Shown: piece by piece, positions 11,193 to 57,080 of the stretch
Numbering within the stretch: the stretch's first letter is position 1
Layout of the letters: every line of letters begins with the position of its first letter
Assembly: GCA_041666485.1 (NCBI GenBank)
Contig: JBAYGW010000003.1
Coordinates: forward strand, 16,415 to 80,414
From: Patescibacteria group bacterium
Lineage (GTDB): Bacteria; Patescibacteriota; Patescibacteriia; UM-FILTER-42-10
Direction of reading: 5' to 3'
Length of the DNA stretch: 64,000 nt
Notes under the pieces: generated by a model
Databases searched by the model: none
Seen by the model: only the letters and a program-made list of their open reading frames with translations
What the model was told of the DNA's origin: nothing
Translations under genes and position numbers: made by a program

Positions 11193-11276
11193 TATGAATA
11201 TTGACAGAAGAAGTGGAATACAATACCATTGTTAACGCCCGCTGATTGTAAGACATCCTTCATGGAGGAGGTGGAC

Positions 11277-11573: not shown

Positions 11574-11623
11574 ACCGCGTTGATGTTCTATCAGCGCTTT
11601 TTTTATATATTTATTTGACGTTA

Positions 11624-11959
11624 CTATCTGAAGATTTTAGACAGAAACCAGTTTACAATAGCCAGTACAATACCAAACAGCAATGCCCACCAAAAGCTTG
11701 CTATGGAAAATCCCGGAACAATTAACGCCATCAGCATAACCAATAATGCGTTAATCACCAGCGTAAACAAGCCAAGCGTCAGAATATTGATCGGCAGAGT
11801 AAAAATTACTAAAACAGGTTTGATAAATATATTAATCAGACCCAATACCAACGCCCCGACAAAAGCGACAAAAAAACCATCAACCGCTACGCCCGGTAGC
11901 AGATAGGCTGTGATCAGGATTGCGACCGTTGAAATTAGCCATTTAATAAGGATTTTCAT
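11624..11959 (-). CDS. DUF360 / holin-family-4-like small membrane protein
   Basis: 111 aa, 3-4 TM, LPGVAVDGFFVAFVGALVLGLIN pattern. Confidence 0.5.
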   Translation of the reverse strand: MKILIKWLISTVAILITAYLLPGVAVDGFFVAFVGALVLGLINIFIKPVLVIFTLPINILTLGLFTLVINALLVMLMALIVPGFSIASFWWALLFGIVLAIVNWFLSKIFR

Positions 11960-12156
11960 ATTGTTTTATTTAATGATTATGAAATCTTAGCTCTCTCTCC
12001 ATCAACCCAAAATAGTTGTTCATTATTAACAAAAGTAGGTATAATTAATGTACAAATATATTTTAGCACAATTCGCATAAAATACTCTATATTGCTGAAA
12101 TACGACATATATTCGTGTTGAAACGGGTTAAGTGAAATTCTAAATCTATTTTACAT

Positions 12157-21797: not shown

Positions 21798-22718
21798 CTA
21801 TTTGTTCAGCAATTTCAATAATCTCTCACCCACGGAATATGGAACAGTTCTATTTTTTGAAATATACCCCAGAGGCAGTCCCGGTATGCTCTTATTATGG
21901 AAATCGCTGCCGCCTGTAATCTGCAGATTATTGCGTTCCGCAAATTTCAGCAGATTTTTAATATCTTTTACATAATGATCGGAAGCATATGCTTCTATAC
22001 CGTCTAATCCCATTTTTTTTAATGCTAGAAGATTTTTTGACCAAGTTCCTTTTACCGGCCACAGAGATAAATCCGGGGAATATCTTCTGCCTAACGGATG
22101 GGAAATAAACGCATATCCTCCCGCGTCATGAATAAGTTTGATCGCCTGTCCGGCGGAGAGATTCTTTTTTTCCGCATACGCGGCCGCGCTTTTAACCAAA
22201 TATTTTGCAATAAATTGTGAACGGTCAGGTATAAATCCGAAATTTTTGATTAATATTTTATTATTCCTTTTATCAAATATTACTTGATCGGCAAGATGCG
22301 GACGACCGATAATTTTTTCCGCTCTGTTTCTCACTCCGATGTAGCTGACCGCGTAGCCCAGACGGTTCAGGTTTATAATCATCTTTTTAATGCGGGTCAC
22401 TCGGCTATTAATATAAAACTGGCTTGCTCTCTTCATTGCGATGTGGTGATAATCAAATCCGTATCCCAACAAATGTAATTCTTCCCCTTTGAATGTGACT
22501 GTTATTTCAATTCCGGAAATAAATGGAAATCCGTATTGCTTAGCCTTTTTTTCAACATCATGCATGCCGATTGCAGAATCATGATCACAGACCACTAAAA
22601 TTTTTACTCCAGATTTTTTTGCCATACGGAAAAGCTCTGATGGCGTCAATGATCCGTCAGAGTGGATAGAATGCACCTGTAGATCCACTAGTTTCTGTTT
22701 CCTTTTCATTATAATCAT
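21798..22718 (-). CDS. PHP-domain phosphoesterase
   Basis: VDLQVHSIHSDGS PHP motif I. Confidence 0.7.
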   Translation of the reverse strand: MIIMKRKQKLVDLQVHSIHSDGSLTPSELFRMAKKSGVKILVVCDHDSAIGMHDVEKKAKQYGFPFISGIEITVTFKGEELHLLGYGFDYHHIAMKRASQFYINSRVTRIKKMIINLNRLGYAVSYIGVRNRAEKIIGRPHLADQVIFDKRNNKILIKNFGFIPDRSQFIAKYLVKSAAAYAEKKNLSAGQAIKLIHDAGGYAFISHPLGRRYSPDLSLWPVKGTWSKNLLALKKMGLDGIEAYASDHYVKDIKNLLKFAERNNLQITGGSDFHNKSIPGLPLGYISKNRTVPYSVGERLLKLLNK

Positions 22719-22839
22719 TATATCCCATTTTACAGAATAAATCCCGTTAAAAGCTTATGTGTGGTATTAAACTCCGCGTTCTCTATACCTTTGTGTATTC
22801 AGCCCGCAGCGAGATGCGAAGTATCCTGCTTCTAATGGA

Positions 22840-22880
22840 ATAAAAAACCTGCCCAACACGTGAGTTGTGTTTAGACAGGG
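22840..22880 (-). terminator. putative terminator after purH
   Basis: imperfect GC stem CCUGUCUAAACAC/GUGUUGGGCAGG followed by U-run on minus strand. Confidence 0.4.
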
Positions 22881-22907
22881 TCCTTTTGAAAAATGTGCAA
22901 ACGCCCT

Positions 22908-24497
22908 CTAGTGCCAGAACATCCGGCGATCGGTAAAGAGCATCGCGATGCCCAGTTTGTCCGCGGACCTGATTGAATCCTGGTCGCGAATTGAACCGCC
23001 CTGCTGGACGATCGTCTTGACGCCGAACGTGTCCGCCAGGCGCACGCAGTCGTCAAACGGGAAGAAGCTGTCGGACACCAGCACAGCATGGTGCAGATCC
23101 ATATTCTGCGCCTCCATGTTGTTCATGGCCTGCTCCAGAGCAAGCCGTGCCGACTTGATCCGGCTGGTCTGGCCGTTGCCGATGCCGATCGTCTGCCCGT
23201 TCCAGACCACGATGACCGAGTTGGACTTGACGTGCTTTGACACATTGCAGCCGAAACTGATATCCGACCAGTAGCGGTCCTTGACACCGAGCTTGGTGAC
23301 GCACCGGAACGACCTGCAGTCAAACAGCTCGGTGTCCATCAGCTGGACCACCATGCCGCCGGTCACCGGCTTGAAGTTCAGCGTGCCGAACGGCATGCTG
23401 CAGGAAAGCTCCCCACCCAGTTTGAACAGCGGGGTCTCTGCCCTGGCGCGCTTCTTGGTGATGTGTTCCATCGCCTCCGGCGAAAAATCCAGCGCGACGA
23501 TCGCGTCCACCTTCTGCACGCAGATGGTTTCAGCGACTTCCTCCGTCACCTGGAAGTTGAGTACCACCACCCCGCCGAAAGCCGATTCCGGATCGCACGC
23601 CAGTGCGTTCTGGAAAGCCTTCAGCGGACTGAAGCTGTCCATCGCCACTCCGCACGGCGTACCATGCTTGATGATCGCGACTGCGAATTCCGGGGACAGG
23701 TCGCGGACCGTCTCAATGCCGGCATTGATATCCAGCACAGTGGTGGCCGAGAGCGGCTTGCCCCAGATCTGCTTGGCGTTTGCCGCGGTGTAGCAGTTCA
23801 GACCCGGCAGTTCGTAGAACGCACCCGGCTGATGCGGATTCTCACCGTAGCGCAGATCACACTTCTTCTGCAGACGCTGAACCATCCGATCCGGGAAGCT
23901 GGGGAACTCAAGGCGTTCAGCCAGCCAGTCGGAGATCGTGGCGTCATACCACGCAGTGTGAAGAAACGCCTTGTAAGCCAGTTGCAGACGTTCCAGCGCG
24001 TTGAACCCGACATCTTCCGAAAGACACCGAATCACAAAGCCGTACTGCTCTGGTGAAGTGACCACCAGCACATGGCTGTGATTCTTCGCGGCCGCGCGGA
24101 TCAGTGCCACGCCGCCGATATCAATCTGCTCAATCGCGTCCCGAAATGCCACGGTCCGATCAGCCACCGTCTCTTCAAACGGATACAGGTTGACCACGAC
24201 CATGTCAAACGGGTAGATGCTGTGATCAAACAGCTCCTGCATGTGCGCGTCGCTGTCCTGATCCGCCAGGATCCCGCCGTGGATCTTCGGATGCAGAGTC
24301 TTCACCCTGCCACCCAGAATTTCCGGGAAACCGGTCACCTCCTCTACCGTTCGCACGGGAATTCCGGCTTCCACCAGGTGTCTGGACGTTCCGCCGGAAG
24401 ATACAATCTCCCAGCCATGTTCAAACAGCACGGTGGCAAGCTCAACAATGCCGCGCTTGTCGGACACGCTGATCAGAGCGCGCTGATTTGCTCGCAT
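22908..24497 (-). CDS. purH: bifunctional AICAR transformylase / IMP cyclohydrolase
   Basis: ALISVSDKRGIVELA (MGS domain), GGTSRHLVEAGIPV, KTLHPKIHGGIL; AAAGGAG RBS at chosen start; gene conspicuously GC-rich. Confidence 0.9.
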   Translation of the reverse strand: MRANQRALISVSDKRGIVELATVLFEHGWEIVSSGGTSRHLVEAGIPVRTVEEVTGFPEILGGRVKTLHPKIHGGILADQDSDAHMQELFDHSIYPFDMVVVNLYPFEETVADRTVAFRDAIEQIDIGGVALIRAAAKNHSHVLVVTSPEQYGFVIRCLSEDVGFNALERLQLAYKAFLHTAWYDATISDWLAERLEFPSFPDRMVQRLQKKCDLRYGENPHQPGAFYELPGLNCYTAANAKQIWGKPLSATTVLDINAGIETVRDLSPEFAVAIIKHGTPCGVAMDSFSPLKAFQNALACDPESAFGGVVVLNFQVTEEVAETICVQKVDAIVALDFSPEAMEHITKKRARAETPLFKLGGELSCSMPFGTLNFKPVTGGMVVQLMDTELFDCRSFRCVTKLGVKDRYWSDISFGCNVSKHVKSNSVIVVWNGQTIGIGNGQTSRIKSARLALEQAMNNMEAQNMDLHHAVLVSDSFFPFDDCVRLADTFGVKTIVQQGGSIRDQDSIRSADKLGIAMLFTDRRMFWH

Positions 24498-24589
24498 TTC
24501 TGCTCCTTTCGTGGCAAACCGTGAAGCTTTCACCGCAAACAACCGTTTGGGAAACGGTTTTTTAACTTATCACTCCGACTGACGCAAGT

Positions 24590-27645: not shown

Positions 27646-28602
27646 ATGATTAAAGAACCAACTCCAGGATTGGAGCAATCAAGAGAATTAATAGAAGAAC
27701 AAGGCCACAACACCAGTGTTCATTTTACATTTGTCCGTCATTCGCAGAAATCATCAGGTCAAGTTTTTGCAGAAGGTGGCAAGGGAATATCGCGATCAAG
27801 TATTTCCGAAGGAGGAAGACAGCGGGCAGAAGTTTATGGACGAGATCAAATGTCCAGTCGAAGAATAAATAAAGCTTATGCTACTAAAGTAGATAGAACA
27901 AAAGAAACATTAAATTATGCTTTTCAGGCAGCAGAAATAAATCCAGATATTCTACAAAAATCAGATAGCTCACAATCTTTCTTCTCACTGCCCGCTTTAT
28001 CGGGCAGTACAGAATTTAATAGACGTTATGATGCTATTATGCTTCCCGAAAGACAAAAATTTATTGACGGGCATTATCCGGGGAGGCAATTTAGTGAACT
28101 GACGCCAGATGAGCAAGAGGTAGCCGCAGAATACGCCGAGGAACCGGCCCTAGAATGGTATCTTTCATATAATAATGAACGACCCGATGAAGAAACACCA
28201 AGCCCGCGTGAACAGGCCGCCTCTGTTGCCTTCAAACTAAATCGACTCGTTAATTTAACGGATTTCATGCCAAATGGCAAAGAATTGGACCTTGTCAGTT
28301 CAGGACATAAAACATCTACTGAAGCATTGCTAAAATATATTATAGAACGACAAGAAAATGGCGAAGTAGTAGTGGGATTTGAAAGCTTGGAACAAATAGG
28401 TGGAAGTTTAAAGATTCTAGATAGCTGGGATTTATATGTTCAAAATGATGAAGGTGGAGAAAAGCATATCATGATGGTGTTGAGACGGGAAAATGGTGAA
28501 ACGCAGGAATATGGACTAAACAGTTCTATTCTAAATGAATTGGCAAAAGAATACATTGAGGCCAGCAGTTTGAAGCCTAAGAAAATAGACTCATTACAAT
28601 AA
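27646..28602 (+). CDS. hypothetical protein, possible histidine-phosphatase (PGAM-like) fold
   Basis: FTFVRHSQ…ISEGGRQRAEVYG and SSGHKTSTEALL resemble RHG…/second His region; weak. Confidence 0.4.
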   Translation: MIKEPTPGLEQSRELIEEQGHNTSVHFTFVRHSQKSSGQVFAEGGKGISRSSISEGGRQRAEVYGRDQMSSRRINKAYATKVDRTKETLNYAFQAAEINPDILQKSDSSQSFFSLPALSGSTEFNRRYDAIMLPERQKFIDGHYPGRQFSELTPDEQEVAAEYAEEPALEWYLSYNNERPDEETPSPREQAASVAFKLNRLVNLTDFMPNGKELDLVSSGHKTSTEALLKYIIERQENGEVVVGFESLEQIGGSLKILDSWDLYVQNDEGGEKHIMMVLRRENGETQEYGLNSSILNELAKEYIEASSLKPKKIDSLQ

Positions 28603-28606
28603 AGCT

Positions 28607-28936
28607 ATGGCAAAAATATTACTTACCGGCATAGGCGCCAGCCCAGGATATGTAGAAGGCACTGCACGACTATTTCATTCTGGCGATGAACTATTATCAT
28701 TTCATGATGGTGATATTTTAGTAACTATAATAACCGATCCAACCATGGTGACCGCGATGGTAAAAGCATCGGCAATAATTACAGATATCGGTGGTATTAC
28801 ATCCCACCCCGCAATCCTGAGTCGTGAAATGGGTATACCTTGTATTGTTAATACGAAGGAGGCAACAAAGATAATAAGAGATGGCATGCATATTAGTGTT
28901 GATGGTCAAAAAGGAGAAATTTATGTCCTGGATTAA
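28607..28936 (+). CDS. standalone PEP-utilising-enzyme mobile (phosphohistidine swivel) domain protein
   Basis: DIGGITSHPAILSREMGIPCIV matches GGxTSHAAIxARExGIPxVVG. Confidence 0.72.
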   Translation: MAKILLTGIGASPGYVEGTARLFHSGDELLSFHDGDILVTIITDPTMVTAMVKASAIITDIGGITSHPAILSREMGIPCIVNTKEATKIIRDGMHISVDGQKGEIYVLD

Positions 28937-29990
28937 TGAGTTTACAAAATCAGCATCAAGTTTGTTTAAAGGTCAGATACTAGCAGGTTTCCAACCGCTT
29001 GATTTTAGTCACTTTCTTCCACTTTGGTATGCTCTATGGATTACTAATATTGCGCATACAATTAAAATACTGGACTTAGAATCAAAACATTTTGATGAAA
29101 TCAATGAAATACTTCCACCACCTTCCAACATGAGGGCAATTCTGGTAAAACTTATTCCCGCTTATTATGCTAATCCCACAAAAAATAAGAAGGATTACAA
29201 CATAGTAGCAAATTTTTTTGCGCGAATGCTTAAAGAATGCTGCCCAAATGATCCATTTGCTCTTAAATCAAATACCATTCATACAAGCACGGAAATTATT
29301 TCCCTTGTATCCAATATAAACTGGAATAATGCCGATATTCAAAGTGCGCGAAAAGTTGGCCAACTTATCACTGCAACCGGGTCACTTGTTCATGGTTTAT
29401 ATAACGACCTTGTAACGGATCTCGGCTGGGAAGTATATGGTCCATATATTTCAACAATAAAGCAAACATTACTAATACGTCTTTTCCCCAATCTCCAACC
29501 AAAAGAGCTATGGCCAGAAAAGTATTTAGCCAGCATGAAAGAAATTACTATCTATGCCACTTATGAAGATGTTGAATGGAATATTTCTTTTGTTGGCTGT
29601 CATACAATTTCTAATGGAAAAAGCCCAGTTGAAGGCATGACAAAATACGCAATTTACGGGGATGGAAAAAAATTAAATCTAATCAATACAGAAAATCTTA
29701 TTGATGAATTATCAAAGAAAGCAACAGATATTTATAGCAACATAAATAGTATGTCCTCTGAGAACCTTAAATTATTGGTTATGAGGCAAGAATGCTATCA
29801 ACTTAAATTATTGTTTGATGAAGCGGGAATCGATTGGCAGCCGACCGCTGAAATGATAGAAGTAGTTAAAAGCAAGCAAATTTTGCATGGAGTATTTCCG
29901 CGTGATAAATTTATTGAATCAACAGAGGAATTTAAGAAAATATTTGGCATTGATGTTTTTGAAAAAGAAATTCTGAATATTTTAAATTAA
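28921..29990 (+). CDS. hypothetical protein (356 aa), translationally coupled to swivel-domain gene
   Basis: AGGAG RBS; 16-nt overlap with upstream stop. Confidence 0.45.
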
Positions 29991-30001
29991 TTTATAAACA
30001 T

Positions 30002-30427
30002 ATGACCAAAGCACAAATCAAGGGACATCAAGTTGTTTGTTCCGCGTTTATAGAAAGAAATAAAAGGTTTTTGATTGTCATGGATCCCAAATTCAAAGTT
30101 TGGCGGGTTCCCGGAGGCAGACCGGAGCACGGTGAAAAGCTTGAAGATACTTTGATACGAGAAATGCAGGAAGAAACAGGTATAACATTTTCCGACCCCA
30201 AATTCATCGGCTTTGGCCAGGATCAGCAGTTTAAAGTGGATGATAAACTGGAAACATCGCGTTTGATTATGTATTTTCATGTGCATACCGACCAGGAACC
30301 GGTGCTTGACCCGAACGAAGCAGAACAGCACAAATGGGTTACGCTTGACGAACTCAAGGAAATAGATTTAGATAACAAGGAAGGGGCGCTTACCGATTTT
30401 TTTAATCGTAATCCGAATTTTAAATAA
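30002..30427 (+). CDS. NUDIX hydrolase
   Basis: Nudix box GGRPEHGEKLEDTLIREMQEETGI. Confidence 0.8.
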   Translation: MTKAQIKGHQVVCSAFIERNKRFLIVMDPKFKVWRVPGGRPEHGEKLEDTLIREMQEETGITFSDPKFIGFGQDQQFKVDDKLETSRLIMYFHVHTDQEPVLDPNEAEQHKWVTLDELKEIDLDNKEGALTDFFNRNPNFK

Positions 30428-30434
30428 AACATTT

Positions 30435-30812
30435 ATGAATGAAAATGTCATAGTCAAAGAGTCAAGTATCAATAATAAAGGCGTTTTTGCCACACGCGAT
30501 TTTAAAAAGGGTGAAGTAGTGCTCCCCTGGCAGACAAATACTATCCTAACCATGGAAGAAGTTAAAAAATTGCCGGCATCAGAAAGAAACTATATCGCCA
30601 ACTATGCGGGGGGTAAATATCTGCATCAACAAGAGCCGGAAAGATATGTTAACCACTCCTGCGATCCGAATACAGAAACTGGTGATGATTGTGACGTAGC
30701 GATCAGAGATATTAAATCTGGTGAAGAAATTACTTCCGATTATTCCAAGGCAAAGTTTAATATGCACTTTGTATGCAACTGCGGGAGTAAAAATTGCCGC
30801 AAGTATATTTAA
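30435..30812 (+). CDS. SET-domain protein-lysine methyltransferase
   Basis: GVFATRDFKKGEVV, RYVNHSCDPNTE, GEEITSDY, post-SET CNCGSKNCR. Confidence 0.75.
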   Translation: MNENVIVKESSINNKGVFATRDFKKGEVVLPWQTNTILTMEEVKKLPASERNYIANYAGGKYLHQQEPERYVNHSCDPNTETGDDCDVAIRDIKSGEEITSDYSKAKFNMHFVCNCGSKNCRKYI

Positions 30813-30838
30813 GTATATATACTTTAAATGATTGAATC

Positions 30839-31297
30839 ATGTCGGATCAACGAAAAGTAATCCCGGGAGTACATCTCATTTTCCAAAAATATAATAATGA
30901 CATCGGCGAGAACGAGTATCTGCTCCACAAGCGCATGAATACCAACTTTTTTGACAAACACTTTTCCGTTCCCGGCGGGCATATTGATGATTATGAAACC
31001 CCTACCGACTGCGTGGTACGCGAAGGAAAAGAAGAACTTGGTGTGGATATTGATCCAAAATACATAAAATTTGCTAATGTACTTTACAGGATTAAAAAAT
31101 CCGATCATGAAGTGCGCATTGACTTTTGCTACATCATTACCAAATGGAAAGGCATATTGAAGGCCAATGAACAGCATAAACACTCTGAGCCGGCCTGGTA
31201 TCCACTCAGCAAATTCCCTACACCCGTAGTTCCTTATGTATTGCAGGCAATACAAGATATTGAAAGTGGAATTGCATACACAAAGACAGATATTTAG
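30839..31297 (+). CDS. NUDIX hydrolase
   Basis: PGGHIDDYETPTDCVVREGKEELGV. Confidence 0.75.
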   Translation: MSDQRKVIPGVHLIFQKYNNDIGENEYLLHKRMNTNFFDKHFSVPGGHIDDYETPTDCVVREGKEELGVDIDPKYIKFANVLYRIKKSDHEVRIDFCYIITKWKGILKANEQHKHSEPAWYPLSKFPTPVVPYVLQAIQDIESGIAYTKTDI

Positions 31298-31351
31298 TGG
31301 GGAATAAGAATCATAATAATAACCTGGGTGCAAGAATTTAATTCAATATAA

Positions 31352-31789
31352 ATGTTTACAATCGGAACATTCGGCATAATCAAAGATGAAAATGAACGGG
31401 TATTACTCTGTCACCGCCGGGATTATGATTTTTGGAATCTGCCTGGAGGCGGAGTAAAAGAAAATGAAACTCCCTGGGACGCTGTAATTCGGGAAATAAG
31501 GGAAGAAACGGGACTGGAAGCTCGGATCACTCACCTCTCGGGCGTGTACAGCAAGCCGGATAAAAATGAAATTGTGTTTTCTTTTGTTTGCGAAATAGCG
31601 GGCGGGGAAACTACTTTAACTGACGAGGCGGACAAAATAGCATATTTTGAAGTTGACCAGATTCCTAAAAATACTTCCCCGAAACAAGTGGAACGGATCA
31701 AAGATTATTTTGCTGATCCATCCAAAACCCACTACAAGGCGCAAACCGGCGCGTCATCAATTGATCTGATCAAAGCGGGAAGACTTTAA
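31352..31789 (+). CDS. NUDIX hydrolase
   Basis: LPGGGVKENETPWDAVIREIREETGLE. Confidence 0.8.
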   Translation: MFTIGTFGIIKDENERVLLCHRRDYDFWNLPGGGVKENETPWDAVIREIREETGLEARITHLSGVYSKPDKNEIVFSFVCEIAGGETTLTDEADKIAYFEVDQIPKNTSPKQVERIKDYFADPSKTHYKAQTGASSIDLIKAGRL

Positions 31790-33191: not shown

Positions 33192-34784
33192 TTATTGGAT
33201 GATTCCTCCACCCACCTGAACGCCGTTTCGGTATTCAATTGCATAAGGGAAAAATCCGGCATTGATGATCGGCTGGCCGTAGCGGTTGAAAATTCTGACA
33301 TGCGGTCCTCCGCCCGGCCCGGCACCGGTAATGATTTCATCCCTACCATCCTGATCCAAATCAGCGATTCCGACATTTACTCCCCCTCGGAATGCGGTAT
33401 CATAGGCGAAAAATCCCGGAGTGAACTTAATATTGCCATAGGGGTCAAAAATTCTGACGTGCGCTCCCATTCGTACATTGGTTCCGGTAATTATCTCGTC
33501 CCGTCCGTCTTTATCCAGGTCGCCGGCGGCAACTTTAATGCCGTGCCGGAGATCTTCACGATACGCAAAAAATCCCGGAGAAAATTTCAGATTGCCGTCT
33601 CCGCCAAAAACACGTACATGCGGACCGCCGCCGGATTCTGTACCGGTAATTATTTCTGATTTACCGTCTCCGTCCAGATCGCCGGCTGCAACTTTTACAC
33701 CCAGTAAATAGTTATAATTATAGGCGGAAAATTCCTTTAACAAATAATATTTTCCGTCACGATATTCAAATACTCTTACTAAGTGCCCGCCGACTCCGGC
33801 GCCAGTGATTATTTCTTTTGTTCCGTTACCGTTTACATCCCCAATCGCAACATTGACACCGCCGCCGAAATTTTCGTCATAAGCCATGAAAGAATTTATC
33901 TGTATTCCTTCAATATTAAACAATCTGACTTCCGGTTTTCTGCCGTCCTGCGGACCGACAACGACTTCCGCTATCCCGTCCAGTGTGATATCACCAACAG
34001 CCAGATTTACTCCGCCGAGAAATTCTTTTTCATATACCAAAAATTCTCTGACAAAATTGCCGTCTTTTCCGAAAACTTTAACGTATGGCTCCTCCCATTT
34101 GCTGGTAGCAACAACAATGCCGGTTGATTTTGAGTCACCGATAACCTGAGGAGTTGGAATATTTGTCTGATCATCATCCTTGATCGGGACAGACGGTGTT
34201 GTCCGTGCAGTAATTTTCAGTTTATCCTGATTGCTGAAACTAAACATCATTGATGCTTCATAAGCATTTCTATCAGCATAATAGATATCTACCGTATGTT
34301 TGGATTCTGTTATCGTCTCTATTGCTGTTTTAGTACGTGCGGCATGAACACCGGAATTATCAATCACCAATCTTCCGTCAAAATATACCCATGAATCATC
34401 ATCACTGGTTATGGACAGGACATAGTCGCCAGGAAAATCGGTTGTAACATAAGACTGCCAGTGAACACCGAAATTTCGGTCGTGTCCCAGATTATCCTCT
34501 TCCTTTGCAGAATCAAACGGGAAAAAATTATTACCAAAATTCAAATTATCATCAATTCTGGCAAAACGAAAATACTTATTGTCATACCAGTCAGTATCCC
34601 AAGTGCCTAGCGGATTGCCGTGATTATTATCAGGCCACTTCGCACTGGGAACTGCCATATCAGGATGTAACTCAGAATAGTTATAATACCTGCCATACCA
34701 GCCGGTATCACCTTCCGCACTACGTACCCCGAACGGGATAAATAATCCGACTACTGCCAAAATTAATATTGATTTTTTAATCAT
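33192..34784 (-). CDS. secreted PA14-domain + FG-GAP-repeat (beta-propeller) protein
   Basis: Signal peptide; PA14-like GDYVLSITSDDDSWVYFDGRLVIDN; >=5 repeats of G(D/N)xDxDGxxEIITG. Confidence 0.7.
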   Translation of the reverse strand: MIKKSILILAVVGLFIPFGVRSAEGDTGWYGRYYNYSELHPDMAVPSAKWPDNNHGNPLGTWDTDWYDNKYFRFARIDDNLNFGNNFFPFDSAKEEDNLGHDRNFGVHWQSYVTTDFPGDYVLSITSDDDSWVYFDGRLVIDNSGVHAARTKTAIETITESKHTVDIYYADRNAYEASMMFSFSNQDKLKITARTTPSVPIKDDDQTNIPTPQVIGDSKSTGIVVATSKWEEPYVKVFGKDGNFVREFLVYEKEFLGGVNLAVGDITLDGIAEVVVGPQDGRKPEVRLFNIEGIQINSFMAYDENFGGGVNVAIGDVNGNGTKEIITGAGVGGHLVRVFEYRDGKYYLLKEFSAYNYNYLLGVKVAAGDLDGDGKSEIITGTESGGGPHVRVFGGDGNLKFSPGFFAYREDLRHGIKVAAGDLDKDGRDEIITGTNVRMGAHVRIFDPYGNIKFTPGFFAYDTAFRGGVNVGIADLDQDGRDEIITGAGPGGGPHVRIFNRYGQPIINAGFFPYAIEYRNGVQVGGGIIQ

Positions 34785-34912: not shown

Positions 34913-36415
34913 TTAGGTAATTGTAAAAATATTGATTTTTTCAATCGCTTTCTTTGCCAGTTCAATTCTTTCCCTGCGATTCGCGTAAAAAGTGAACAGT
35001 TTACTACCCTTTTTAACTTCCTGTCCAACCCTTTTGTGGAGGTAAATGCCGGCCAATTTTTCTGAAGGCGCACCTAGTGTTCTCGCAATTTCGTCAATTG
35101 CTTTATTATCTACTGCGGTTATTTTACCTGACTTTGCGGAAAGTACACGGTAATACTCACCGCCTAAGACCACTGCGTCGGAATCAATTGTAGAATTACC
35201 ACCCTGTTCCTTGATCACCACCTGCATTTTTTTCCACGCCTTACCTGATACCAGAATTTCTTCCGCAACTGATTTTCCCTTACCGCGCGCCACCTGCCCC
35301 GATATTTCCAGAAGTTTTCCCGCCAAAACCAGTGCTTTATCTTCTAAATCTTTCGGCCTGTTACTTTTTTGCTGCAATACCCGGAGAACATCGCGTGATT
35401 CCAAGGCCGGTCCAACCCCTCTGCCGACCGGTTCATTGGCAAAAATTTTTTCAACATGTATTTTAATCCCAAAACGCTTGCCAAGATACATAAACTTTTT
35501 TTCAATCTCATTCGCGGTCTTCATATCCGGAATTTTTGAGGTGATTCCGACCGGCATATCAATCACCAGATACTTGATACCCATGGCAACTTTTTTCGCC
35601 ATAATACTTACCACCATTTTATCAAACGGTTCCAAGGAGAGTGGTTTTGTCACCTGAATAATCAAATCATCCGCCGGAGCAATATTTAAACCACCGCCCC
35701 AGATCATACATACTTTGTTTTTCATCACCATTTGTTTGATTCTGGTCATGGAAAATCCGACCGGAGCCAATACTTCCATAGTATCCGCCGTACCCGACGG
35801 TGAAGTGATCGCCCGGGAGGAGGTTTTTGGAATATATAAACCAAAGGCTGCAACAATCGGAACAACAATCATAGTTGTCCTATTGCCGGCCAAACCGCCG
35901 ACGGAATGTTTATCAACTACAATTTTATTTCCGGAAAATCTCAACTGCTCGCCGGTTTCCGCAATTGATTTTGTAAGATAATACAGCTCCAGTGGAGTAT
36001 AAGGCCTTGCAAAACTAGACGCGACAAAATATGATGTTTCCACCGGTCCGAGTCTGCGGCTGACAATATCTGCTATGATTGAATGAATTTCCTCATAACT
36101 TAAAACACCGCCCTTAATTTTCTTATTAATTGCTTTTACTGATTCCGGACGTTCAACGATTGAAACCTCAATGATTTGATCTTTCTTCATCGGGTACTTC
36201 GCCCAGATCTCTTCAAAAAAACCGATCTCCCCCGGCTTTATTTCATTTTCCGCCAGGTTTACAGTAGCAAATATTCTTTTACGGTTATGCCAGGACAAAC
36301 CGATATGGTCATTAGCATGAATACCAAAATTGAGGGCTTCTTTTTCATTTAAAAGCACCTTCGGCATCTCGCCGGTTTCAATATCAATTTTTTTTGCCCT
36401 TAAATAAAATGCCAT
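34913..36415 (-). CDS. AMP phosphorylase (thymidine-phosphorylase family, archaeal DeoA-type)
   Basis: Near full-length similarity to Thermococcus AMPpase incl. HSVGGLAGNRTTMIVVPIVAA, PKTSSRAITSPSGTADTMEV. Confidence 0.85.
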   Translation of the reverse strand: MAFYLRAKKIDIETGEMPKVLLNEKEALNFGIHANDHIGLSWHNRKRIFATVNLAENEIKPGEIGFFEEIWAKYPMKKDQIIEVSIVERPESVKAINKKIKGGVLSYEEIHSIIADIVSRRLGPVETSYFVASSFARPYTPLELYYLTKSIAETGEQLRFSGNKIVVDKHSVGGLAGNRTTMIVVPIVAAFGLYIPKTSSRAITSPSGTADTMEVLAPVGFSMTRIKQMVMKNKVCMIWGGGLNIAPADDLIIQVTKPLSLEPFDKMVVSIMAKKVAMGIKYLVIDMPVGITSKIPDMKTANEIEKKFMYLGKRFGIKIHVEKIFANEPVGRGVGPALESRDVLRVLQQKSNRPKDLEDKALVLAGKLLEISGQVARGKGKSVAEEILVSGKAWKKMQVVIKEQGGNSTIDSDAVVLGGEYYRVLSAKSGKITAVDNKAIDEIARTLGAPSEKLAGIYLHKRVGQEVKKGSKLFTFYANRRERIELAKKAIEKINIFTIT

Positions 36416-36480
36416 GATTAGTAATTCGTAATTAGCAATTGGTAATTAGTAATTAGCAACGTGTAATTCGCTGTATAATG
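36416..36480 (-). promoter_or_regulatory. tandem AATTAC-repeat array in leader of AMP phosphorylase gene
   Basis: cgAATTACacgttgctAATTACtAATTACcaattgctAATTACgAATTACtaatcATG (read toward gene); near-identical array before guaB. Confidence 0.35.
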
Positions 36481-36516
36481 CCGTATGTACAGGTCTGATA
36501 TTAAGATGTAAAAAAA

Positions 36517-37800
36517 TTACTTATCCCCATCCTTCCAATGTCTGAGCGCAACGGCTAACTCTCCGTGGTCTTTGGCATACTCATCCAGATCAATCCCCGC
36601 AAGCGTCGCGTCTAATGCCTGTTTAACGGCTGTCGCTCCGGCAAATGTTCCTTCCGGATGACCATGGATACCCCCGCCAAAATTCAGAATTACATCTTTG
36701 CCGAATATTTTATAAAGCGAAGGTATTAAATTGGGATACAACCCGCCTGATGCGATCGGGAATGTTGATTTAATATTAAACCACTTACTGCGCAGAAAAT
36801 CATCTATTTCAACTACATCACTTTTTCCACCCTCCATTTTCCCCACAACCGTGCCGGTGTGCAGCTGATCAATACCTGCCAGACGCGCCAATTTTGACAG
36901 CACTAGCATACTCATTCCATGTTTTTGGTTCTTAGTGAACATAGAATGCCCAGCTCTGTGACCGTGAATTATAAGACCTAAATCCCGTTTGCGTAACATT
37001 TGCACATTATCAAGTCCTACGGAAACCATGTCAATCATTACCACTTCACCGCCGAGGCTTTTGACCAGCTGCGCTCTTTTGATCATTTCATCCGGTTGTG
37101 CTGTTACATTAAACACGCACAATTTTTTGCAGCCTGTTTCTTTTTCCGCTTTATCCCTCATTTTAAGAGTAAGCCGGACTCGCTGATCAAATCGGCTGAA
37201 AGAAAGGTCGGTTAAATTTTCATCATCTTTGACCAGATCAATTCCACCGATAAAGACCTGGTAAGACAGTGTGGCATGCTGCAGAGCGGACAAGCCCAGC
37301 TTTGGTTTCAGAATTGATCCCAGTATGGGCCGGTCATAAATTCCCATAATGCGCCTGATCCCTTTTATGCCGAAACGCGGGCCCTGAAAACTTTCAACAT
37401 ATTCTTTCGGAAAGTCTACATCCACTAATCTGAGATTCCTTATGATCTTCATACTAAAAACATTACCCGCCACACCGGATAAAAATTGCGGGATGCTCCC
37501 CTTTTCAAAAAGCGCCAAGGGATAGGCAACTTTGAATGTATGGGCTTTTTTATCAATATCATATGCTTTCGCGCTCAGCTTCGTGAATGTTGCTTTGGAT
37601 AATGTGGCAAGATCCGTCCAGGTTCCAATAGAAGATTCCGCCGCCACTCCGCCCGCCGCATCGTTAAAATCAACATTGGTATCCATATAGAATGAAGCGA
37701 CAAGTTCTGTTTTCTTCGGCTGATAGCTTTTTTTTACAAATTTTTGGTAAAATTTATTCATATTATAGATTCTTGAAAATCCATGGATAATGCTTTTCAA
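36517..37800 (-). CDS. rbcL: ribulose-1,5-bisphosphate carboxylase large subunit, form II/III
   Basis: KPKLG carbamylation site, GGIDLVKDDEN, IHGHRAGHSMF, GGGIHGHP; alternative start at 37761. Confidence 0.88.
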   Translation of the reverse strand: MKSIIHGFSRIYNMNKFYQKFVKKSYQPKKTELVASFYMDTNVDFNDAAGGVAAESSIGTWTDLATLSKATFTKLSAKAYDIDKKAHTFKVAYPLALFEKGSIPQFLSGVAGNVFSMKIIRNLRLVDVDFPKEYVESFQGPRFGIKGIRRIMGIYDRPILGSILKPKLGLSALQHATLSYQVFIGGIDLVKDDENLTDLSFSRFDQRVRLTLKMRDKAEKETGCKKLCVFNVTAQPDEMIKRAQLVKSLGGEVVMIDMVSVGLDNVQMLRKRDLGLIIHGHRAGHSMFTKNQKHGMSMLVLSKLARLAGIDQLHTGTVVGKMEGGKSDVVEIDDFLRSKWFNIKSTFPIASGGLYPNLIPSLYKIFGKDVILNFGGGIHGHPEGTFAGATAVKQALDATLAGIDLDEYAKDHGELAVALRHWKDGDK

Positions 37801-38719
37801 CTAAATAAGCAACATCACGTGGCTTAATAATACCAAATTCACAAATTATTCCTTTGATGAATTTAGATGGAATGCGGTCAAAAGCGAAATTGATTATTTT
37901 TAATCCTTTCGGACCGTTCGGCCAGATTTCTTTGCGATCCCGCAATTCAATGCCAACATATTTGCTGATAAATGTTTCCGGATCGGTTTTTAAAAGTGAA
38001 GCGGCGACATAAACCGGAATTTTTTCGTGGTTAGCAACCTGGGCGATTCCGTAGCTACCGACTTTGTTGATCACTGAGCCGCCGGATGTAACCGAGTCTG
38101 CACCCAAAAAAGCAATATCCACCATCACTTCCCGGCCACTGGTTCTGCTGATCAGAAAAGCGGCAGCTGAATCAGCCACCATTGTGACGTCAATCTTTCG
38201 CTTTAATAGATTCTTAGCTGTTATTCGCCCCTGGAAAAGCGGGCGGGTTTCTGTACAAAAAACATGCGGCATCTTTGAATGTTTATTAGCCTCAGTAATA
38301 ATATGCTCCACAGTTGAAGAATGGCAGTGCGTGAATACTTTCATATCTTGCTTAATCAGTTTTGCGCCGGCTACGGCAATTTTTTGATCATGATATTTCA
38401 GCAAAACTAAAAAAAGATGGCAAGCTTTTTTTAGCAACTTCGCCAACTCAGGCACGGATAAACCTTCTTTATTATTCTCTAAATAATGTAAAACGAATTG
38501 GACTGAATTACGGGACAGCGGTTCGGTCGGCCTTGCTTCCGCCAAGGCTTTGCCACTTTTACGAATAGCAGAAAGAAACTGGCTTTTATTTTTTTTTAGC
38601 AATTGATTACTTTCCAACTGCAACGCGTCCAAAATTACTTTGGTTATCTGCGTTGCACCCTGTATTTCTAAAGATGCTATTTTTGTTACTGTTTTTTGTA
38701 CTGCGCTATTCATAAACAC
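37763..38719 (-). CDS. ribose-1,5-bisphosphate isomerase (eIF-2B alpha/beta/delta family)
   Basis: e2b2-family core …VTMVADSAAAFL…FLGADSVTSGGSVINKVGSYG. Confidence 0.72.
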   Translation of the reverse strand: MFMNSAVQKTVTKIASLEIQGATQITKVILDALQLESNQLLKKNKSQFLSAIRKSGKALAEARPTEPLSRNSVQFVLHYLENNKEGLSVPELAKLLKKACHLFLVLLKYHDQKIAVAGAKLIKQDMKVFTHCHSSTVEHIITEANKHSKMPHVFCTETRPLFQGRITAKNLLKRKIDVTMVADSAAAFLISRTSGREVMVDIAFLGADSVTSGGSVINKVGSYGIAQVANHEKIPVYVAASLLKTDPETFISKYVGIELRDRKEIWPNGPKGLKIINFAFDRIPSKFIKGIICEFGIIKPRDVAYLVEKHYPWIFKNL

Positions 38720-38734
38720 AGTATACCATTTATA

Positions 38735-40558
38735 TCATTCCCATTCAATCGTCCCTGGCGGCTTGTTGGTGAAATCAAAAACAATCAAATCTATTTGTTT
38801 TATTCTTTTTAAGCGTCCGACAACCTGGTCAATAAAAGATCGGGACAACGGGAAATACTTGACCGTCATTGCTTCCTCCGATTGCACGGGGCGCAAAATT
38901 ACTGTGTAGCCGCCCGCAATGGAATATGGGGCCAGGATTACGGGAAATTGCCAGATTTTAGAATCCAGTCGGGCTTTTTTCATTTCAGACTGTACTATGT
39001 CGTCAATATTCTGCAGTAGAGCCACGTTTTTTTTCGTCAGCAGAAGTTTAATATTTTTTCCTCCGCTAATATCTTTTTTCCTGCTAAAAATCACCCAGCA
39101 CACCCGATTTACATTTTGAATCTGATTTGCCACGAGCGGACCGAGCTTTTGCATTTGAATAGTATTCATTTCTCCGGAGAAAACCGCGGGATGGGCGTAA
39201 GTCCGTTCATCGCCCTGAACGCCCACACTTCTGACCGGTAGTACCCAGCCTTTAATATCTGATTTGTTCTCATAATTGAACTGCGAGATTATTATATCCA
39301 AATCGGCATTTTCTTTCTTTACATTTACATGCACCTTATTTCCCCGGGAACAAATTATACGGATTGCCAACCCCGGACCGGGAAATGGATGACGATTGAT
39401 AATTTCTCCAGGCAAGCCGATCTGCTTGCCGAGCTGCCGTACTTCGTCTTTGTACAAGTCTTTCAAAGGCTCAATGACCAACCCGCGTTTTATTAATTCC
39501 AAAACTTCTTTTACCCGATTATGGTGTGTTTTTATTTTATCGGCGTGCTTCGTCCCGCCCGATTCAATTGTATCCGGATAAATAGTCCCCTGCGCCAGAA
39601 TCCATTCCTTTGGATTCAGTTTGAATTTCTTCATCGCAATTCTTTGAACATCCAGATACGTCCTGCCGATAATCTCGCGTTTGCGTTCCGGACTGATAAT
39701 ACCTTTTAACCTCTTATAGAATAGTACGGAAGCATCCATTACTTCCAGATTGGTAAACCCTAGTTTATTGAAACGTTTTTTTATTTCCTCTGATTCATTT
39801 TTTCTCATGAACCCCAGATCAATATGCAGACCAAACACCTTTTCTTTGCCCAAGATCCGATTCAGTAACCCGAAACATACGGCAGAATCAACTCCGCCGG
39901 AAACCAGCAAAAATACCTTGCGACTTCCTACTTTCCTAACTATCTCTTTTTCAATATCAGTTAAGTAATGTTTAATATCCCATTCCTTTTTAGCGCCGCA
40001 GATACTGAAAACAAAGTTATTAATTAATTCCATTCCACGTTCTGTATGTGATACTTCGGGGTGAAACTGGACTCCGTATATTTTCATTATGCTGTTTCCC
40101 ATCGCTGCTACCGGGCAATCAGCAGTCTTTGCCATGACTTTAAATCCCTTCGGCACATTTAATACAAGATCACCATGACTCATCCAAACCTGTTCGTTTG
40201 CACCAAATTTCCTGAACAGCTTGCCGGGTTCAATTACTGACAGGTTGGCAAAACCATATTCTCTCACATCACCCCTGACTACTTTTCCGCCCATTAGATA
40301 GGTGATCAGTTGGTGACCATAGCAAACACCTAGGATTGGTACGCCGCTTTTCAGTATTCTCCGGTCAAATTTTATTTTCCCGTCATAAACGCTGTTTGGT
40401 CCGCCGGACAGGATTATTCCCCAGGACGACCTTAATTCTTCAAGTGGCGTTTCGGGATTGTAAATATTAGCTAAAACACCAAGTTGCCGGATTCTGCGTG
40501 CAATCAGGTGGGTATATTGTGAACCAAAATCCAGAATTGTTATGTGTTTTTGTTTCAT
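38735..40558 (-). CDS. guaA: GMP synthase (glutamine-hydrolysing)
   Basis: GATase ILDFGSQYTHLIARRIR, PP-loop SGGVDSAV, C-terminal …IEWE; 607 aa (longer than usual). Confidence 0.9.
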   Translation of the reverse strand: MKQKHITILDFGSQYTHLIARRIRQLGVLANIYNPETPLEELRSSWGIILSGGPNSVYDGKIKFDRRILKSGVPILGVCYGHQLITYLMGGKVVRGDVREYGFANLSVIEPGKLFRKFGANEQVWMSHGDLVLNVPKGFKVMAKTADCPVAAMGNSIMKIYGVQFHPEVSHTERGMELINNFVFSICGAKKEWDIKHYLTDIEKEIVRKVGSRKVFLLVSGGVDSAVCFGLLNRILGKEKVFGLHIDLGFMRKNESEEIKKRFNKLGFTNLEVMDASVLFYKRLKGIISPERKREIIGRTYLDVQRIAMKKFKLNPKEWILAQGTIYPDTIESGGTKHADKIKTHHNRVKEVLELIKRGLVIEPLKDLYKDEVRQLGKQIGLPGEIINRHPFPGPGLAIRIICSRGNKVHVNVKKENADLDIIISQFNYENKSDIKGWVLPVRSVGVQGDERTYAHPAVFSGEMNTIQMQKLGPLVANQIQNVNRVCWVIFSRKKDISGGKNIKLLLTKKNVALLQNIDDIVQSEMKKARLDSKIWQFPVILAPYSIAGGYTVILRPVQSEEAMTVKYFPLSRSFIDQVVGRLKRIKQIDLIVFDFTNKPPGTIEWE

Positions 40559-40644
40559 ACTTGTCTTTATTGTAAAATATACTTACAATTAAAACAACAT
40601 TTTAACCCTAATCCCTTGTCCCTACTACCTAACTTCGCATATTA

Positions 40645-40705
40645 CCAGGTAGAGATTACGAATTACCAAATTGCCAATTACTAATTACTAGTTCCTAAAC
40701 CCTAA
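40645..40705 (+). promoter_or_regulatory. tandem AATTAC-repeat array in guaA/guaB divergent region, immediately before guaB
   Basis: gagATTACgAATTACcaaattgccAATTACtAATTACtag…ATG. Confidence 0.35.
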
Positions 40706-40711
40706 AAAAAT

Positions 40712-42187
40712 ATGTTTACCCAGTTTGAAGAAACATTAACATTTGATGATGTATTGTTAGTTCCGCAAAAGTCATCAATTCTTCCGAATGAAACCGAGAT
40801 TAAAACCAGGCTGACACGCAGGATAAATTTAAATATTCCATTAATCTCATCCCCGATGGACACTGTAACCGAACACCGGCTGGCGATCGCCCTGGCACTG
40901 CACGGCGGAATCGGGATAATTCATAAAAATATGCCTGCCGACAAACAGGCGCAGGAAGTAAGTTTTGTAAAAAGATTTGAAAACGGCTTTATTGAAAATC
41001 CTGCCACACTGCAGCCGGAAGATCCGATTGATGACGCGGCGGAAATTAGAGACAAAAAAGGATACAAAAAAATTCCGATTGTTGATAAAAACAACAAGCT
41101 GGTGGGAATGATTACCGAGCAGGATTATTTCGTGCCCGACGATTTGAAACTGCCGATAAAATTTAAAATGAAACGTTTGAATGAAATTGTGGTCGCTAAG
41201 CACGGCATCACCCTCCAACAAGCAAATAAAATTATTAGGGAGAAAAAGCTCACCGCATTGCCGATCGTTAATAAGCAGGGAAAACTGGTTAGTATGGTTA
41301 CCAGAAAAGATTTGGAAAAAAACGAGCAGCACCCCAATGCCTGCAAGGATGATAAAAAACAACTGCGGGTCGGTGCCGCTATTTCCGTCGGCCCGGAAGC
41401 TCTGGAACGCGCCAAATATTTGGTTGCCGCCGGAGTAGATGTATTGGTCGTTGATACCGCTCACGGCCATACTAAGGGCGTATTGGATACGGTAAGAGCG
41501 CTGAAAAAAAATAAATTGTTTTCTAATATTGATATCATCGCCGGGAATGTCGCAACAGAAGAAGGAACCAGAGATCTGATCAGGGCTGGTGCGGACGCTG
41601 TAAAGGTAGGGGTCGGGCCGGGATCAATCTGTACCACCAGAGTAATTGCGGGGATCGGTGTACCACAAATCAGCGCGATTCTGGCGGCGGTAAAAGGCCG
41701 GGGTAAATCCAATATTCCCATTATTGCTGACGGCGGTATCCGATACTCAGGCGATATAGTAAAAGCACTTGGTGCTAAAGCGGATTCCGTAATGATCGGC
41801 AGTCTTTTTGCCGGTTGTGAAGAAACACCAGGTGAAATAGAGTATGAAGGTGGCAAAATGTATAAATCCTACCGCGGGATGGGTTCAAAAGAAGCCATGA
41901 TCCACGGATCCAAAGACCGTTACGGACAGGGAGAGCAAAAAGACAGTGAAAAACTGGTGCCGGAAGGTGTATCAGCCAGGGTTATTTATAAAGGGCTGGT
42001 TTCAAGACACATATATCAGTTGATCGGCGGGATTAGATCCGGTATGGGTTATATCGGCTCTAAAACAATTTCGGAGTTGCACAGGAAAGCAAGATTTATT
42101 AAAATCAGCTCTGCGGGACTGCGAGAAAGTCATCCACATGATGTAACAATTACAAAACAGCCGCCAAATTATCATTCGGAAAAATAA
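40712..42187 (+). CDS. guaB: IMP dehydrogenase
   Basis: [13 protein letters not shown] pair, [11 protein letters not shown] catalytic loop. Confidence 0.92.
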
Positions 42188-42231
42188 TAAACAAAAGACG
42201 GATTTCACATCCGTCTTTTTAATTCGCTCTA

Positions 42232-57069: not shown

Positions 57070-57080
57070 TGAATTAATAT

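What the first reader, a model, noticed from the sequence alone, without database searches (positions are those of the whole stretch)
27646..31789. Seven-gene co-directional cluster: PGAM-like protein + standalone phospho-His swivel domain + unknown protein + Nudix-SET-Nudix-Nudix
All seven ORFs are on one strand with gaps of 4-54 nt, including a 16-nt overlap between the swivel-domain gene and the next ORF, which indicates translational coupling. The PEP-utilising mobile domain (GGITSHPAIL) normally occurs as an internal domain of PEP synthase, PPDK or rifampin phosphotransferase. Here it is a free 109-aa protein flanked by two proteins with no obvious ATP-grasp or PEP-binding domains. The upstream protein has an RHx…/GGKG region suggestive of a histidine phosphatase. 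Downstream, a SET-domain methyltransferase is sandwiched between three Nudix hydrolases. I do not recognise this combination as any described pathway. It could be a phosphotransfer-driven nucleotide, small-molecule or protein modification module.
Basis: partly seen in the sequence, partly recalled or inferred. Interest (0 to 1): 0.72.

Follow-up and report, generated by a model that had tools for sequence, protein, structure and literature searches.

The report
Split phosphotransfer enzyme with new-fold partner
Three of the seven genes (a histidine-phosphatase-fold protein, a free-standing phospho-histidine "swivel" carrier and a 355-aa protein with no match among solved structures) form a module conserved across Patescibacteria that looks like a disassembled ATP-dependent dikinase with an unknown substrate, while the Nudix and SET genes are just neighbours.

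The parts
27646..28602 (+). Gene A, 318 aa. Histidine-phosphatase-superfamily protein with a helical cap insertion (about residues 105-210) and an extra C-terminal beta subdomain. The predicted nucleophile is His32 (codon 27739-27741).
28607..28936 (+). Free-standing phospho-histidine swivel domain, 109 aa. Catalytic His67 (codon 28805-28807) lies in the motif GGITSHPAILSRE, and the PEPS-type Thr65 is retained.
   Evidence: PF00391 E=1.3e-25. The best NCBIfam match is the swivel region of PEP synthase, E=5.8e-35. The motif is conserved in 43 of 44 distinct swivels adjacent to C.
28912..28916 (+). AGGAG Shine-Dalgarno sequence for gene C, lying inside the 3' end of the swivel gene.
   Evidence: Read directly from the sequence. 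There are 6 nt between it and ATG 28923.
28923..29990 (+). Gene C, 355 aa. Member of a Patescibacteria-wide family with no match among solved structures. Proposed acceptor or substrate-binding catalytic domain of the system. It overlaps the swivel gene by 14 nt.
30002..30427 (+). Nudix hydrolase 1, 141 aa, with a canonical Nudix box. A co-directional neighbour that is not part of the conserved module.
   Evidence: PF00293 E=8.7e-19. Nudix genes lie within 3 kb of C in 2 of 22 loci.
30435..30812 (+). Minimal SET plus post-SET protein methyltransferase, 125 aa. A neighbour that is not part of the conserved module.
   Evidence: PF00856 E=3.1e-16. Full-length match to KMT2/MLL SET domains, E=7e-10. 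SET lies near C in only 2 of 22 loci, the window and L008.
30839..31297 (+). Nudix hydrolase 2, 152 aa. Neighbour.
   Evidence: PF00293 E=5.4e-15.
31352..31789 (+). Nudix hydrolase 3, 145 aa. Neighbour.
   Evidence: PF00293 E=4.1e-22. The best NCBIfam resemblance is the Nudix half of mycobacterial MutT1, well below its cut-off.

Best explanation
Genes A, swivel and C (27646-29990) are the conserved core of a multi-component phospho-histidine transfer enzyme of the dikinase type. Proposed mechanism: a stand-alone PPDK_N-type ATP-grasp protein, not encoded in this window, uses ATP to phosphorylate His67 of the 109-aa swivel protein. The charged swivel docks on C and delivers the phosphoryl group to a substrate bound there. 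C is made in a fixed ratio with the swivel through translational coupling, and in other genomes the two are fused. C therefore plays the part that the PEP/pyruvate barrel plays in PEP synthase, or the rifampin-binding domain in RPH, but with an unrelated fold. A is an active, cap-bearing histidine phosphatase. It most likely hydrolyses a small phosphomonoester made by or downstream of this reaction. Less likely, it resets the phospho-swivel. Shown: the domain identities, the structural novelty of C relative to the PDB, the conserved gene order, the fusions, and the conserved catalytic residues. Inferred: the ATP-grasp as donor in this organism, the direction of phosphoryl flow, the role of C as acceptor site, and the role of A. 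The substrate is unknown. A divergently transcribed TrmB-type regulator in 9 of 22 loci is a weak hint of a carbohydrate. The Nudix-SET-Nudix-Nudix genes are probably co-transcribed neighbours without a conserved link.
For: The swivel lies directly upstream of C in 41 of 42 distinct loci, mostly with the same 14-nt overlap. The one exception has the order swivel-A-C. Swivel-C fusions: P0087 at 466 aa, L017 at 470 aa and L033 at 481 aa, and about a dozen representatives of 450-490 aa with C starting near residue 110-150; two of that size class were checked and carry an N-terminal swivel (P0206, Pfam; P0163-like layout by position only). Links to the ATP-grasp: P0170 is C(53-378) fused to PPDK_N(396-695, E=2e-97), and its locus L066 reads A-like | swivel | C-PPDK_N. 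A PPDK_N gene starts 0-50 nt after C in L003, L011 and L060, is adjacent to C in L063 and L064, and lies about 2 kb away in L017. Stand-alone PPDK_N proteins of about 312 aa are very abundant in Patescibacteria (7,748 hits at E<=1e-40). They sit beside other swivel proteins and histidine-phosphatase-like genes. The swivel catalytic motif is conserved in 43 of 44 sequences. C has 17 invariant residues, mostly polar (D28, H31, S69, K77, D111, C227, H228, Q290, E291, Q294), as expected for a catalytic pocket. For A: the fold and catalytic set, and a phosphatase-like gene adjacent in 22 of 29 loci. Two-component dikinases with an ATP-grasp acting in trans are experimentally established for HpeHI, CreHI and PpsAB (PMC12167813).
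Against: No ATP-grasp gene is present in the 64-kb window, and I could not check the rest of this MAG. PPDK_N lies within 3 kb of C in only 3 of 22 loci, so most systems would need a partner encoded elsewhere. C has no structural or sequence similarity to any known acceptor domain, so its role is assigned only by position, fusion and analogy. A kinase and a phosphatase in one operon is paradoxical unless they act on different species. No structure prediction of a complex could be run. No experiment exists for any member.
Confidence: 0.55

Rival explanations
1. A regulatory phospho-carrier circuit rather than a metabolic enzyme. The swivel acts like HPr or NPr, carrying a phosphoryl signal. A is its phospho-histidine phosphatase, as SixA is for NPr and ArcB. 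C is the regulated target or sensor.
Against: A carries a large helical cap of about 100 residues, and its best structural matches are small-molecule acid phosphatases, glucose-1-phosphatase and phytases. SixA-type protein phosphatases are minimal, about 150 aa. C has many invariant polar residues typical of an active site. Fusions of C to the swivel and to an ATP-grasp mimic the architecture of enzymes.
Confidence: 0.15
2. A histidine-to-histidine relay. The phospho-swivel transfers its phosphoryl group to His32 of A, priming A as a phosphomutase or phosphotransferase of the dPGM type. C is the domain that charges or docks the swivel.
For: Enzymes of the histidine-phosphatase fold work through a phospho-His intermediate, and dPGM-type mutases need priming of that His (established knowledge). 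His-phosphatase-like genes recur next to swivel proteins and ATP-grasp genes even where C is absent: L068, L069 and L007.
Against: No such relay is known. A is missing from about a quarter of loci, and in others the B protein takes its place. B lacks the second catalytic His in most members and cannot be shown to share the fold (hhalign probability 0.5%). There are no A-swivel fusions among the homologues seen.
Confidence: 0.1
3. The enzyme runs in the ATP-forming direction, like PPDK in anaerobes. C binds a high-energy phospho-metabolite and charges the swivel. The swivel then passes the phosphoryl group to the ATP-grasp to make ATP from AMP.
For: Dikinase chemistry is reversible, and PPDK works this way in fermentative organisms (established knowledge). 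Patescibacteria are fermentative with a tight energy budget. The window also encodes the AMP-salvage set of AMP phosphorylase, ribose-1,5-bisphosphate isomerase and RuBisCO, 3-7 kb away.
Against: The proximity to AMP-salvage genes is not conserved in the other loci. Nothing identifies a high-energy donor. It does not explain the phosphatase.
Confidence: 0.1
4. One reading: all seven genes, including Nudix-SET-Nudix-Nudix, form one pathway for phosphotransfer-driven modification of a nucleotide, small molecule or protein.
Against: Nudix and SET each lie within 3 kb of C in only 2 of 22 loci, counting the window. The closest genome relative, L007, has none. Nudix genes are common here, with a fourth at about 50.7 kb. 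In L008 the SET gene is on the other side of the swivel-C pair.
Confidence: 0.05

Closest known systems
Two-component small-molecule dikinases of the RPH family (HpeHI, CreHI, phenylphosphate synthase PpsAB) and single-chain rifampin phosphotransferase
   Same: A phospho-His swivel domain shuttles phosphate from an ATP-grasp (PPDK_N) to a separate substrate-binding domain. The ATP-grasp can be a separate polypeptide acting in trans (PMC12167813). Here the ATP-grasp is adjacent to C or fused to it in several genomes.
PEP synthase / pyruvate phosphate dikinase
   Same: The swivel is most similar to that of PEP synthase (NCBIfam E=5.8e-35 over the swivel region). The order nucleotide-binding domain, swivel, acceptor domain is echoed by the fusions. 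The ATP-grasp partner belongs to the PPDK_N family.
   Different: There is no PEP-utilizers_C TIM barrel in A or C. Scores are far below every equivalog cut-off, for example 120 bits against 598. This is not a split PEP synthase.
SixA and other histidine-phosphatase-superfamily enzymes (dPGM, PhoE, acid phosphatases, phytases)
   Same: A shares the fold and the catalytic set of Arg-His, Arg, Glu and His.
   Different: A has its own cap insertion with an invariant acidic helix (LTPDEQEE.AE.AEEP) and a C-terminal beta subdomain. It forms a Patescibacteria-specific family that mostly falls below the Pfam threshold. Its genomic pairing with swivel proteins has, as far as I could find, not been described.
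Glucan water dikinase plus phosphoglucan phosphatase (plant starch turnover)
   Same: A swivel-His dikinase is functionally paired with a phosphatase that removes the phosphate it adds. This shows that a kinase-phosphatase pair need not be futile (own knowledge; GWD swivel mechanism listed).
   Different: There is no CBM or GWD architecture here, the phosphatase family differs, and there is no evidence that the substrate is a glucan.

Membership tests
PEP synthase / PPDK (PEP-utilising enzymes) | Phospho-His swivel domain with a catalytic His in the GGxTSH motif | tested here: met
   PF00391 E=1.3e-25. GGITSH with His67. The motif is conserved in 43 of 44 relatives.
PEP synthase / PPDK (PEP-utilising enzymes) | PEP/pyruvate-binding TIM barrel (PEP-utilizers_C) | tested here: not met
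PEP synthase / PPDK (PEP-utilising enzymes) | PPDK_N ATP-grasp nucleotide-binding domain in the same enzyme | tested here: not met
   Absent from the seven genes and from the whole window (tblastn). Present next to C or fused to it in other genomes only.
RPH-family small-molecule dikinases, including two-component HpeHI/PpsAB | RPH/HpeH-type substrate-binding domain joined to the swivel | tested here: not met
RPH-family small-molecule dikinases, including two-component HpeHI/PpsAB | ATP-grasp component that phosphorylates the swivel in trans or in cis | tested here: inconclusive
   Genomic linkage and one fusion in other genomes. Biochemistry is not testable here.
RPH-family small-molecule dikinases, including two-component HpeHI/PpsAB | Dikinase stoichiometry (ATP gives AMP, Pi and phospho-product) | not testable with these tools
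   Needs an enzyme assay.
Histidine phosphatase superfamily (gene A) | Alpha/beta fold of the superfamily | tested here: met
Histidine phosphatase superfamily (gene A) | Catalytic RH motif, second Arg, acidic proton donor and second His | tested here: met
   R31, H32, R84, E162/E166 and H221 are invariant in 37 sequences.
Histidine phosphatase superfamily (gene A) | Score above the Pfam His_Phos_1 gathering threshold | tested here: not met
   14.2 bits against a cut-off of 21.7 for the window protein. Several homologues do carry precomputed PF00300 hits.
SixA-type phospho-histidine protein phosphatase (gene A) | Minimal core of about 150-170 aa without a cap domain, and activity on phospho-His proteins | tested here: not met
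   A is 318 aa, with a helical cap of about 100 residues and a C-terminal subdomain. Activity is not testable here.
PTS Enzyme I / HPr phosphorelay | EI architecture (HPr-binding subdomain, swivel and PEP-binding barrel) and an HPr protein | tested here: not met
   Only swivel-limited, far sub-threshold matches to PtsI (45 bits against 342). No HPr or PEP barrel in the cluster.
Nudix hydrolases (three genes) | Nudix domain with the Nudix box GX5EX7REUXEEXGU | tested here: met
   PF00293 E from 5e-15 to 4e-22. The boxes were read in the translations: canonical in genes 4 and 7, one deviation (G at the U position) in gene 6.
SET-domain protein methyltransferases | SET domain plus a Cys-rich post-SET motif | tested here: met
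   PF00856 E=3e-16. Full-length alignment to KMT2 SET/post-SET, E=7e-10. C-terminal CNCGSKNC motif.
Known anti-phage defence systems | Match to a PADLOC system protein for the core genes | tested here: not met
   No hit for the swivel or C. A has only a chance-level UzuA hit (E=0.008). The Nudix genes match a generic Nudix candidate model.

The most novel reading that the evidence does not exclude
The histidine-phosphatase-fold proteins that recur beside swivel and ATP-grasp genes in Patescibacteria are not hydrolases. They are the terminal station of an ATP to swivel-His to enzyme-His phosphorelay. Under this reading the swivel primes His32 of A, which then phosphorylates or isomerises a metabolite, and C is a new kind of docking or charging domain. 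This would be a metabolic His-to-His relay built from dikinase and phosphatase parts, with no known precedent.
Probability: 0.1. Interest if true: 0.85.

Novelty: new variant of a known kind. Interest (0 to 1): 0.62.

Why it matters
Patescibacteria (CPR) have tiny genomes, and much of their conserved gene content has no assigned function. This module is conserved across several CPR classes. It contains a protein family of at least 403 sequence clusters with a confident predicted structure that matches nothing in the PDB. It extends the swivel-dikinase principle to a fully disassembled system of three or four polypeptides with a new acceptor domain. Identifying the substrate would add a new phosphorylation reaction to CPR metabolism. 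It would also explain why "pyruvate, water dikinase" annotations abound in genomes whose matching proteins lack a PEP-binding domain. The regular pairing with histidine-phosphatase-fold proteins suggests a kinase-phosphatase logic, or a relay, that has not been described. The finding also gives a practical correction: the Nudix and SET genes should not be annotated as part of the system.

Tried and rejected
2. A defence-system or phage origin. Rejected: PADLOC and PHROGs found nothing for A or C.
3. A riboswitch or other known RNA in the 118-nt leader upstream of A. None was found at E<=1. The whole-window Rfam scan found only one tRNA.
4. The B protein (about 235 aa, RH motif) as a proven histidine phosphatase. 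Not established: hhalign against family A gives probability 0.5%, there is no PDB or Pfam hit, and the second His is replaced by Asn in most members.
5. The X domain of P0237/P0244. No Pfam hit, no PDB sequence hit, and no BLAST similarity to the other pieces.
7. Looking up the window's own contig to search the MAG for an ATP-grasp failed because the protein is not on record.
8. Promoter and terminator scans did not delimit a transcription unit.
9. Four literature searches found no description of this system. One candidate paper was irrelevant.
Full report
**Observation.** The window comes from a Patescibacteria (CPR) metagenome-assembled genome. Gene 3 is 100% identical to NCBI protein WCT33_01245, and gene 1 to WCT33_01235, both from a "Patescibacteria group bacterium". 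The seven + strand ORFs are at the stated coordinates. Pfam confirms the free-standing swivel (PF00391, E=1.3e-25), three Nudix domains and a SET domain. The 318-aa protein (A) gets only a sub-threshold His_Phos_1 hit. Gene 3 (C) has no hit in Pfam, NCBIfam, PADLOC or PHROGs. Two corrections apply. C starts at ATG 28923, behind an AGGAG at 28912-28916. This gives 355 aa and a 14-nt overlap with the swivel gene, not 16 nt.

**What is conserved.** C belongs to a family of 104 clusters at 90% identity and 403 representatives at 50% identity. Every member that carries a name comes from Patescibacteria lineages: Uhr-, Magasanik-, Doudna-, Morani- and Falkowbacteria and Paceibacterota. A few auto-binned MAGs carry implausible labels.

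I fetched 65 loci containing C and mapped the window's proteins and other recurrent neighbours onto them with tblastn. After de-duplication there are 45 distinct loci:

| Neighbour of C | Loci with it | Loci testable |
|---|---|---|
| Swivel gene directly upstream | 41 | 42 |
| Phosphatase-like gene adjacent (A 14, B 8, classical His_Phos_1 1; one locus has both A and B) | 22 | 29 |
| Divergent TrmB-family regulator within 3 kb | 9 | 22 |
| PPDK_N ATP-grasp within 3 kb | 3 | 22 |
| Nudix within 3 kb (counting the window) | 2 | 22 |
| SET within 3 kb (counting the window) | 2 | 22 |

- The swivel usually overlaps C by the same 14 nt. The one exception (L032) has the order swivel-A-C.
- B is an RH-motif protein of about 235 aa. 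L024, which had too little flank to be counted, has a calcineurin-like metallophosphatase in that position.
- The closest genome relative, L007 (C 69% and A 70% identical), has A-swivel-C but neither Nudix nor SET.

The conserved unit is therefore A (or another phosphatase), the swivel and C. It is not the seven genes.

**Link to dikinases.** Domain fusions and gene order place C in swivel-dikinase chemistry.
- Swivel-C fusions are frequent: P0087, L017, L033, and about a dozen representatives of 450-490 aa.
- P0170 is a C-PPDK_N fusion (PPDK_N E=2e-97). Its locus reads A-like | swivel | C-PPDK_N, so all four parts are in one operon.
- A PPDK_N gene begins within 0-50 nt of C's stop in L003, L011 and L060, is adjacent in L063 and L064, and lies about 2 kb away in L017.
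- A paralogous subfamily, C', about 27% identical to C, occurs as second swivel'-C' pairs, as C-C' tandems, and behind an unidentified X domain of about 330 aa.

Stand-alone PPDK_N proteins of about 312 aa are extremely common and well conserved in Patescibacteria (7,748 hits at E<=1e-40). Three contexts were sampled:
- L068: a swivel protein, a His_Phos_1-like protein, PPDK_N, then another swivel protein.
- L069: an A-like protein (A profile E=4e-10), a swivel protein, then PPDK_N.
- L070: a HAD hydrolase, then PPDK_N.

The window's cluster is thus one variant of a wider Patescibacteria theme: an ATP-grasp, swivel-bearing acceptor proteins, and a phosphatase-fold protein, often with TrmB regulators.

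**Mechanism proposed.** This follows PEP synthase, RPH and the experimentally characterised two-component dikinases HpeHI, CreHI and PpsAB, in which a separate ATP-grasp charges the swivel His in trans (PMC12167813). An ATP-grasp protein encoded elsewhere charges His67 of the free swivel. The motif GG(I/M)TSHPAI is conserved in 43 of 44 swivels next to C. The swivel then delivers the phosphoryl group to a substrate held by C. A most likely hydrolyses a small phosphomonoester made by or downstream of this step. The cap domain argues for a small-molecule substrate rather than a protein.

The identities, the conservation, the fusions and the structural novelty are shown. The donor, the direction, the acceptor role of C and the role of A are inferred. 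The substrate is unknown, and the TrmB linkage is only a weak hint of a carbohydrate.

Weak points remain. There is no ATP-grasp in the window. PPDK_N lies near C in only a minority of loci.

**Rivals.** They are:
- a regulatory phospho-carrier circuit with A as a SixA-like phospho-swivel phosphatase;
- a His-to-His relay that primes A;
- operation in the ATP-forming direction;

The last is largely refuted by the lack of conservation. The others cannot be excluded without biochemistry or complex modelling.

**Nudix and SET genes.** All three Nudix proteins have essentially canonical Nudix boxes (translations). The SET protein aligns over its full length to KMT2-type SET plus post-SET domains (E=7e-10). 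With gaps of 7-54 nt and no + strand terminator within the cluster, they may be co-transcribed with A-swivel-C. Cross-genome evidence does not tie them to it. A SET gene 62% identical lies on the other side of swivel-C in L008. A weak Nudix match follows C in L010/L040. Either could be relic synteny.

**Novelty and verdict.** No paper in the library describes this system. It is a new variant of a known kind: swivel-His dikinase chemistry with a free-standing carrier, an acceptor domain that has no PDB counterpart, and a regular phosphatase-fold partner, restricted to Patescibacteria. Interest is moderate to high (0.62). This is a well-supported, testable lead to an unknown reaction in CPR metabolism and to a new protein family. 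The substrate and physiological role remain open, and the more exotic seven-gene interpretation does not hold.

Noticed in passing
window 34913-43737 (mostly - strand) and 22908-24542: A complete archaeal-type AMP-salvage set lies 3-7 kb downstream of the cluster: AMP phosphorylase (34913-36415), form II/III-like RuBisCO large subunit (36517-37800) and an IF-2B-family ribose-1,5-bisphosphate isomerase (37763-38719). It is followed by GMP synthase, IMPDH and an amidohydrolase. PurH is at 22908-24542. The region is a nucleotide-metabolism neighbourhood, which may explain why Nudix genes accumulate here.
   Followed up: partly
window 22001-24000, 10001-12000 and 56001-58000: There are patches of GC 0.48-0.52 against a background of about 0.39. 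One covers PurH and another a 2-hydroxyacid dehydrogenase (57081-58127). These may be horizontally acquired or strongly constrained genes.
   Followed up: no
window ~50680-51075 (+): A fourth Nudix-like ORF, 24% identical to Nudix 1 by tblastn. This shows that Nudix genes are frequent in this genome.
   Followed up: no
L068:4033-8176, L069:3654-6954, L007:2087-3953: Stand-alone PPDK_N ATP-grasp genes in Patescibacteria sit beside proteins made of an unknown helical domain plus a C-terminal swivel (349-507 aa), and beside histidine-phosphatase-motif proteins (RHG/RHP/RHA ... GHSG). No C-family member is present in these loci. This is a broader, undescribed multi-component dikinase repertoire.
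   Followed up: partly
P0237, P0244 (residues 1-340); P0201, P0219, P0233 (residues 1-330): A conserved domain of about 330 aa ('X', with the motif RP..KSN....IDGK.Y.CERP.Y) precedes swivel-C' or C'. It has no Pfam hit or PDB sequence match and no similarity to A, B, C or PPDK_N.
   Followed up: partly
L003:7077-11642: Directly after C in a complete Moraniibacteriota genome (CP064975) there is a single 1,521-codon open frame. It contains PPDK_N followed by two swivel domains separated by long helical regions, and it is followed by another protein with a swivel and a 330-aa domain. The gene caller had annotated only a 578-aa piece. This may be a giant multi-swivel dikinase, or several genes merged in the ORF scan.
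   Followed up: no
L008:5302-7017: In a relative with C 64% identical, the run is a 153-aa unknown protein, SET (62% identical to the window's SET), a 134-aa unknown protein, the swivel and C. There is no A gene. SET therefore stays near swivel-C in two genomes, but in different positions.
   Followed up: partly
window 33192-34784 (-): A 530-aa secreted-looking protein with repeated FG-GAP/VCBS-like 'GDLDGDG..EIITG' units, just beyond the MFS transporter that ends the cluster. It is typical CPR surface-protein content and unrelated to the finding.
   Followed up: no
L004/L023:4782-5674 versus L005:2672-3565: The A-type gene is split into two ORFs (131 and 163 aa) in one Doudnabacteria assembly but is intact (297 aa) in a near-identical contig from a sequencing run. 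This is probably an assembly frameshift rather than a real pseudogene.
   Followed up: no
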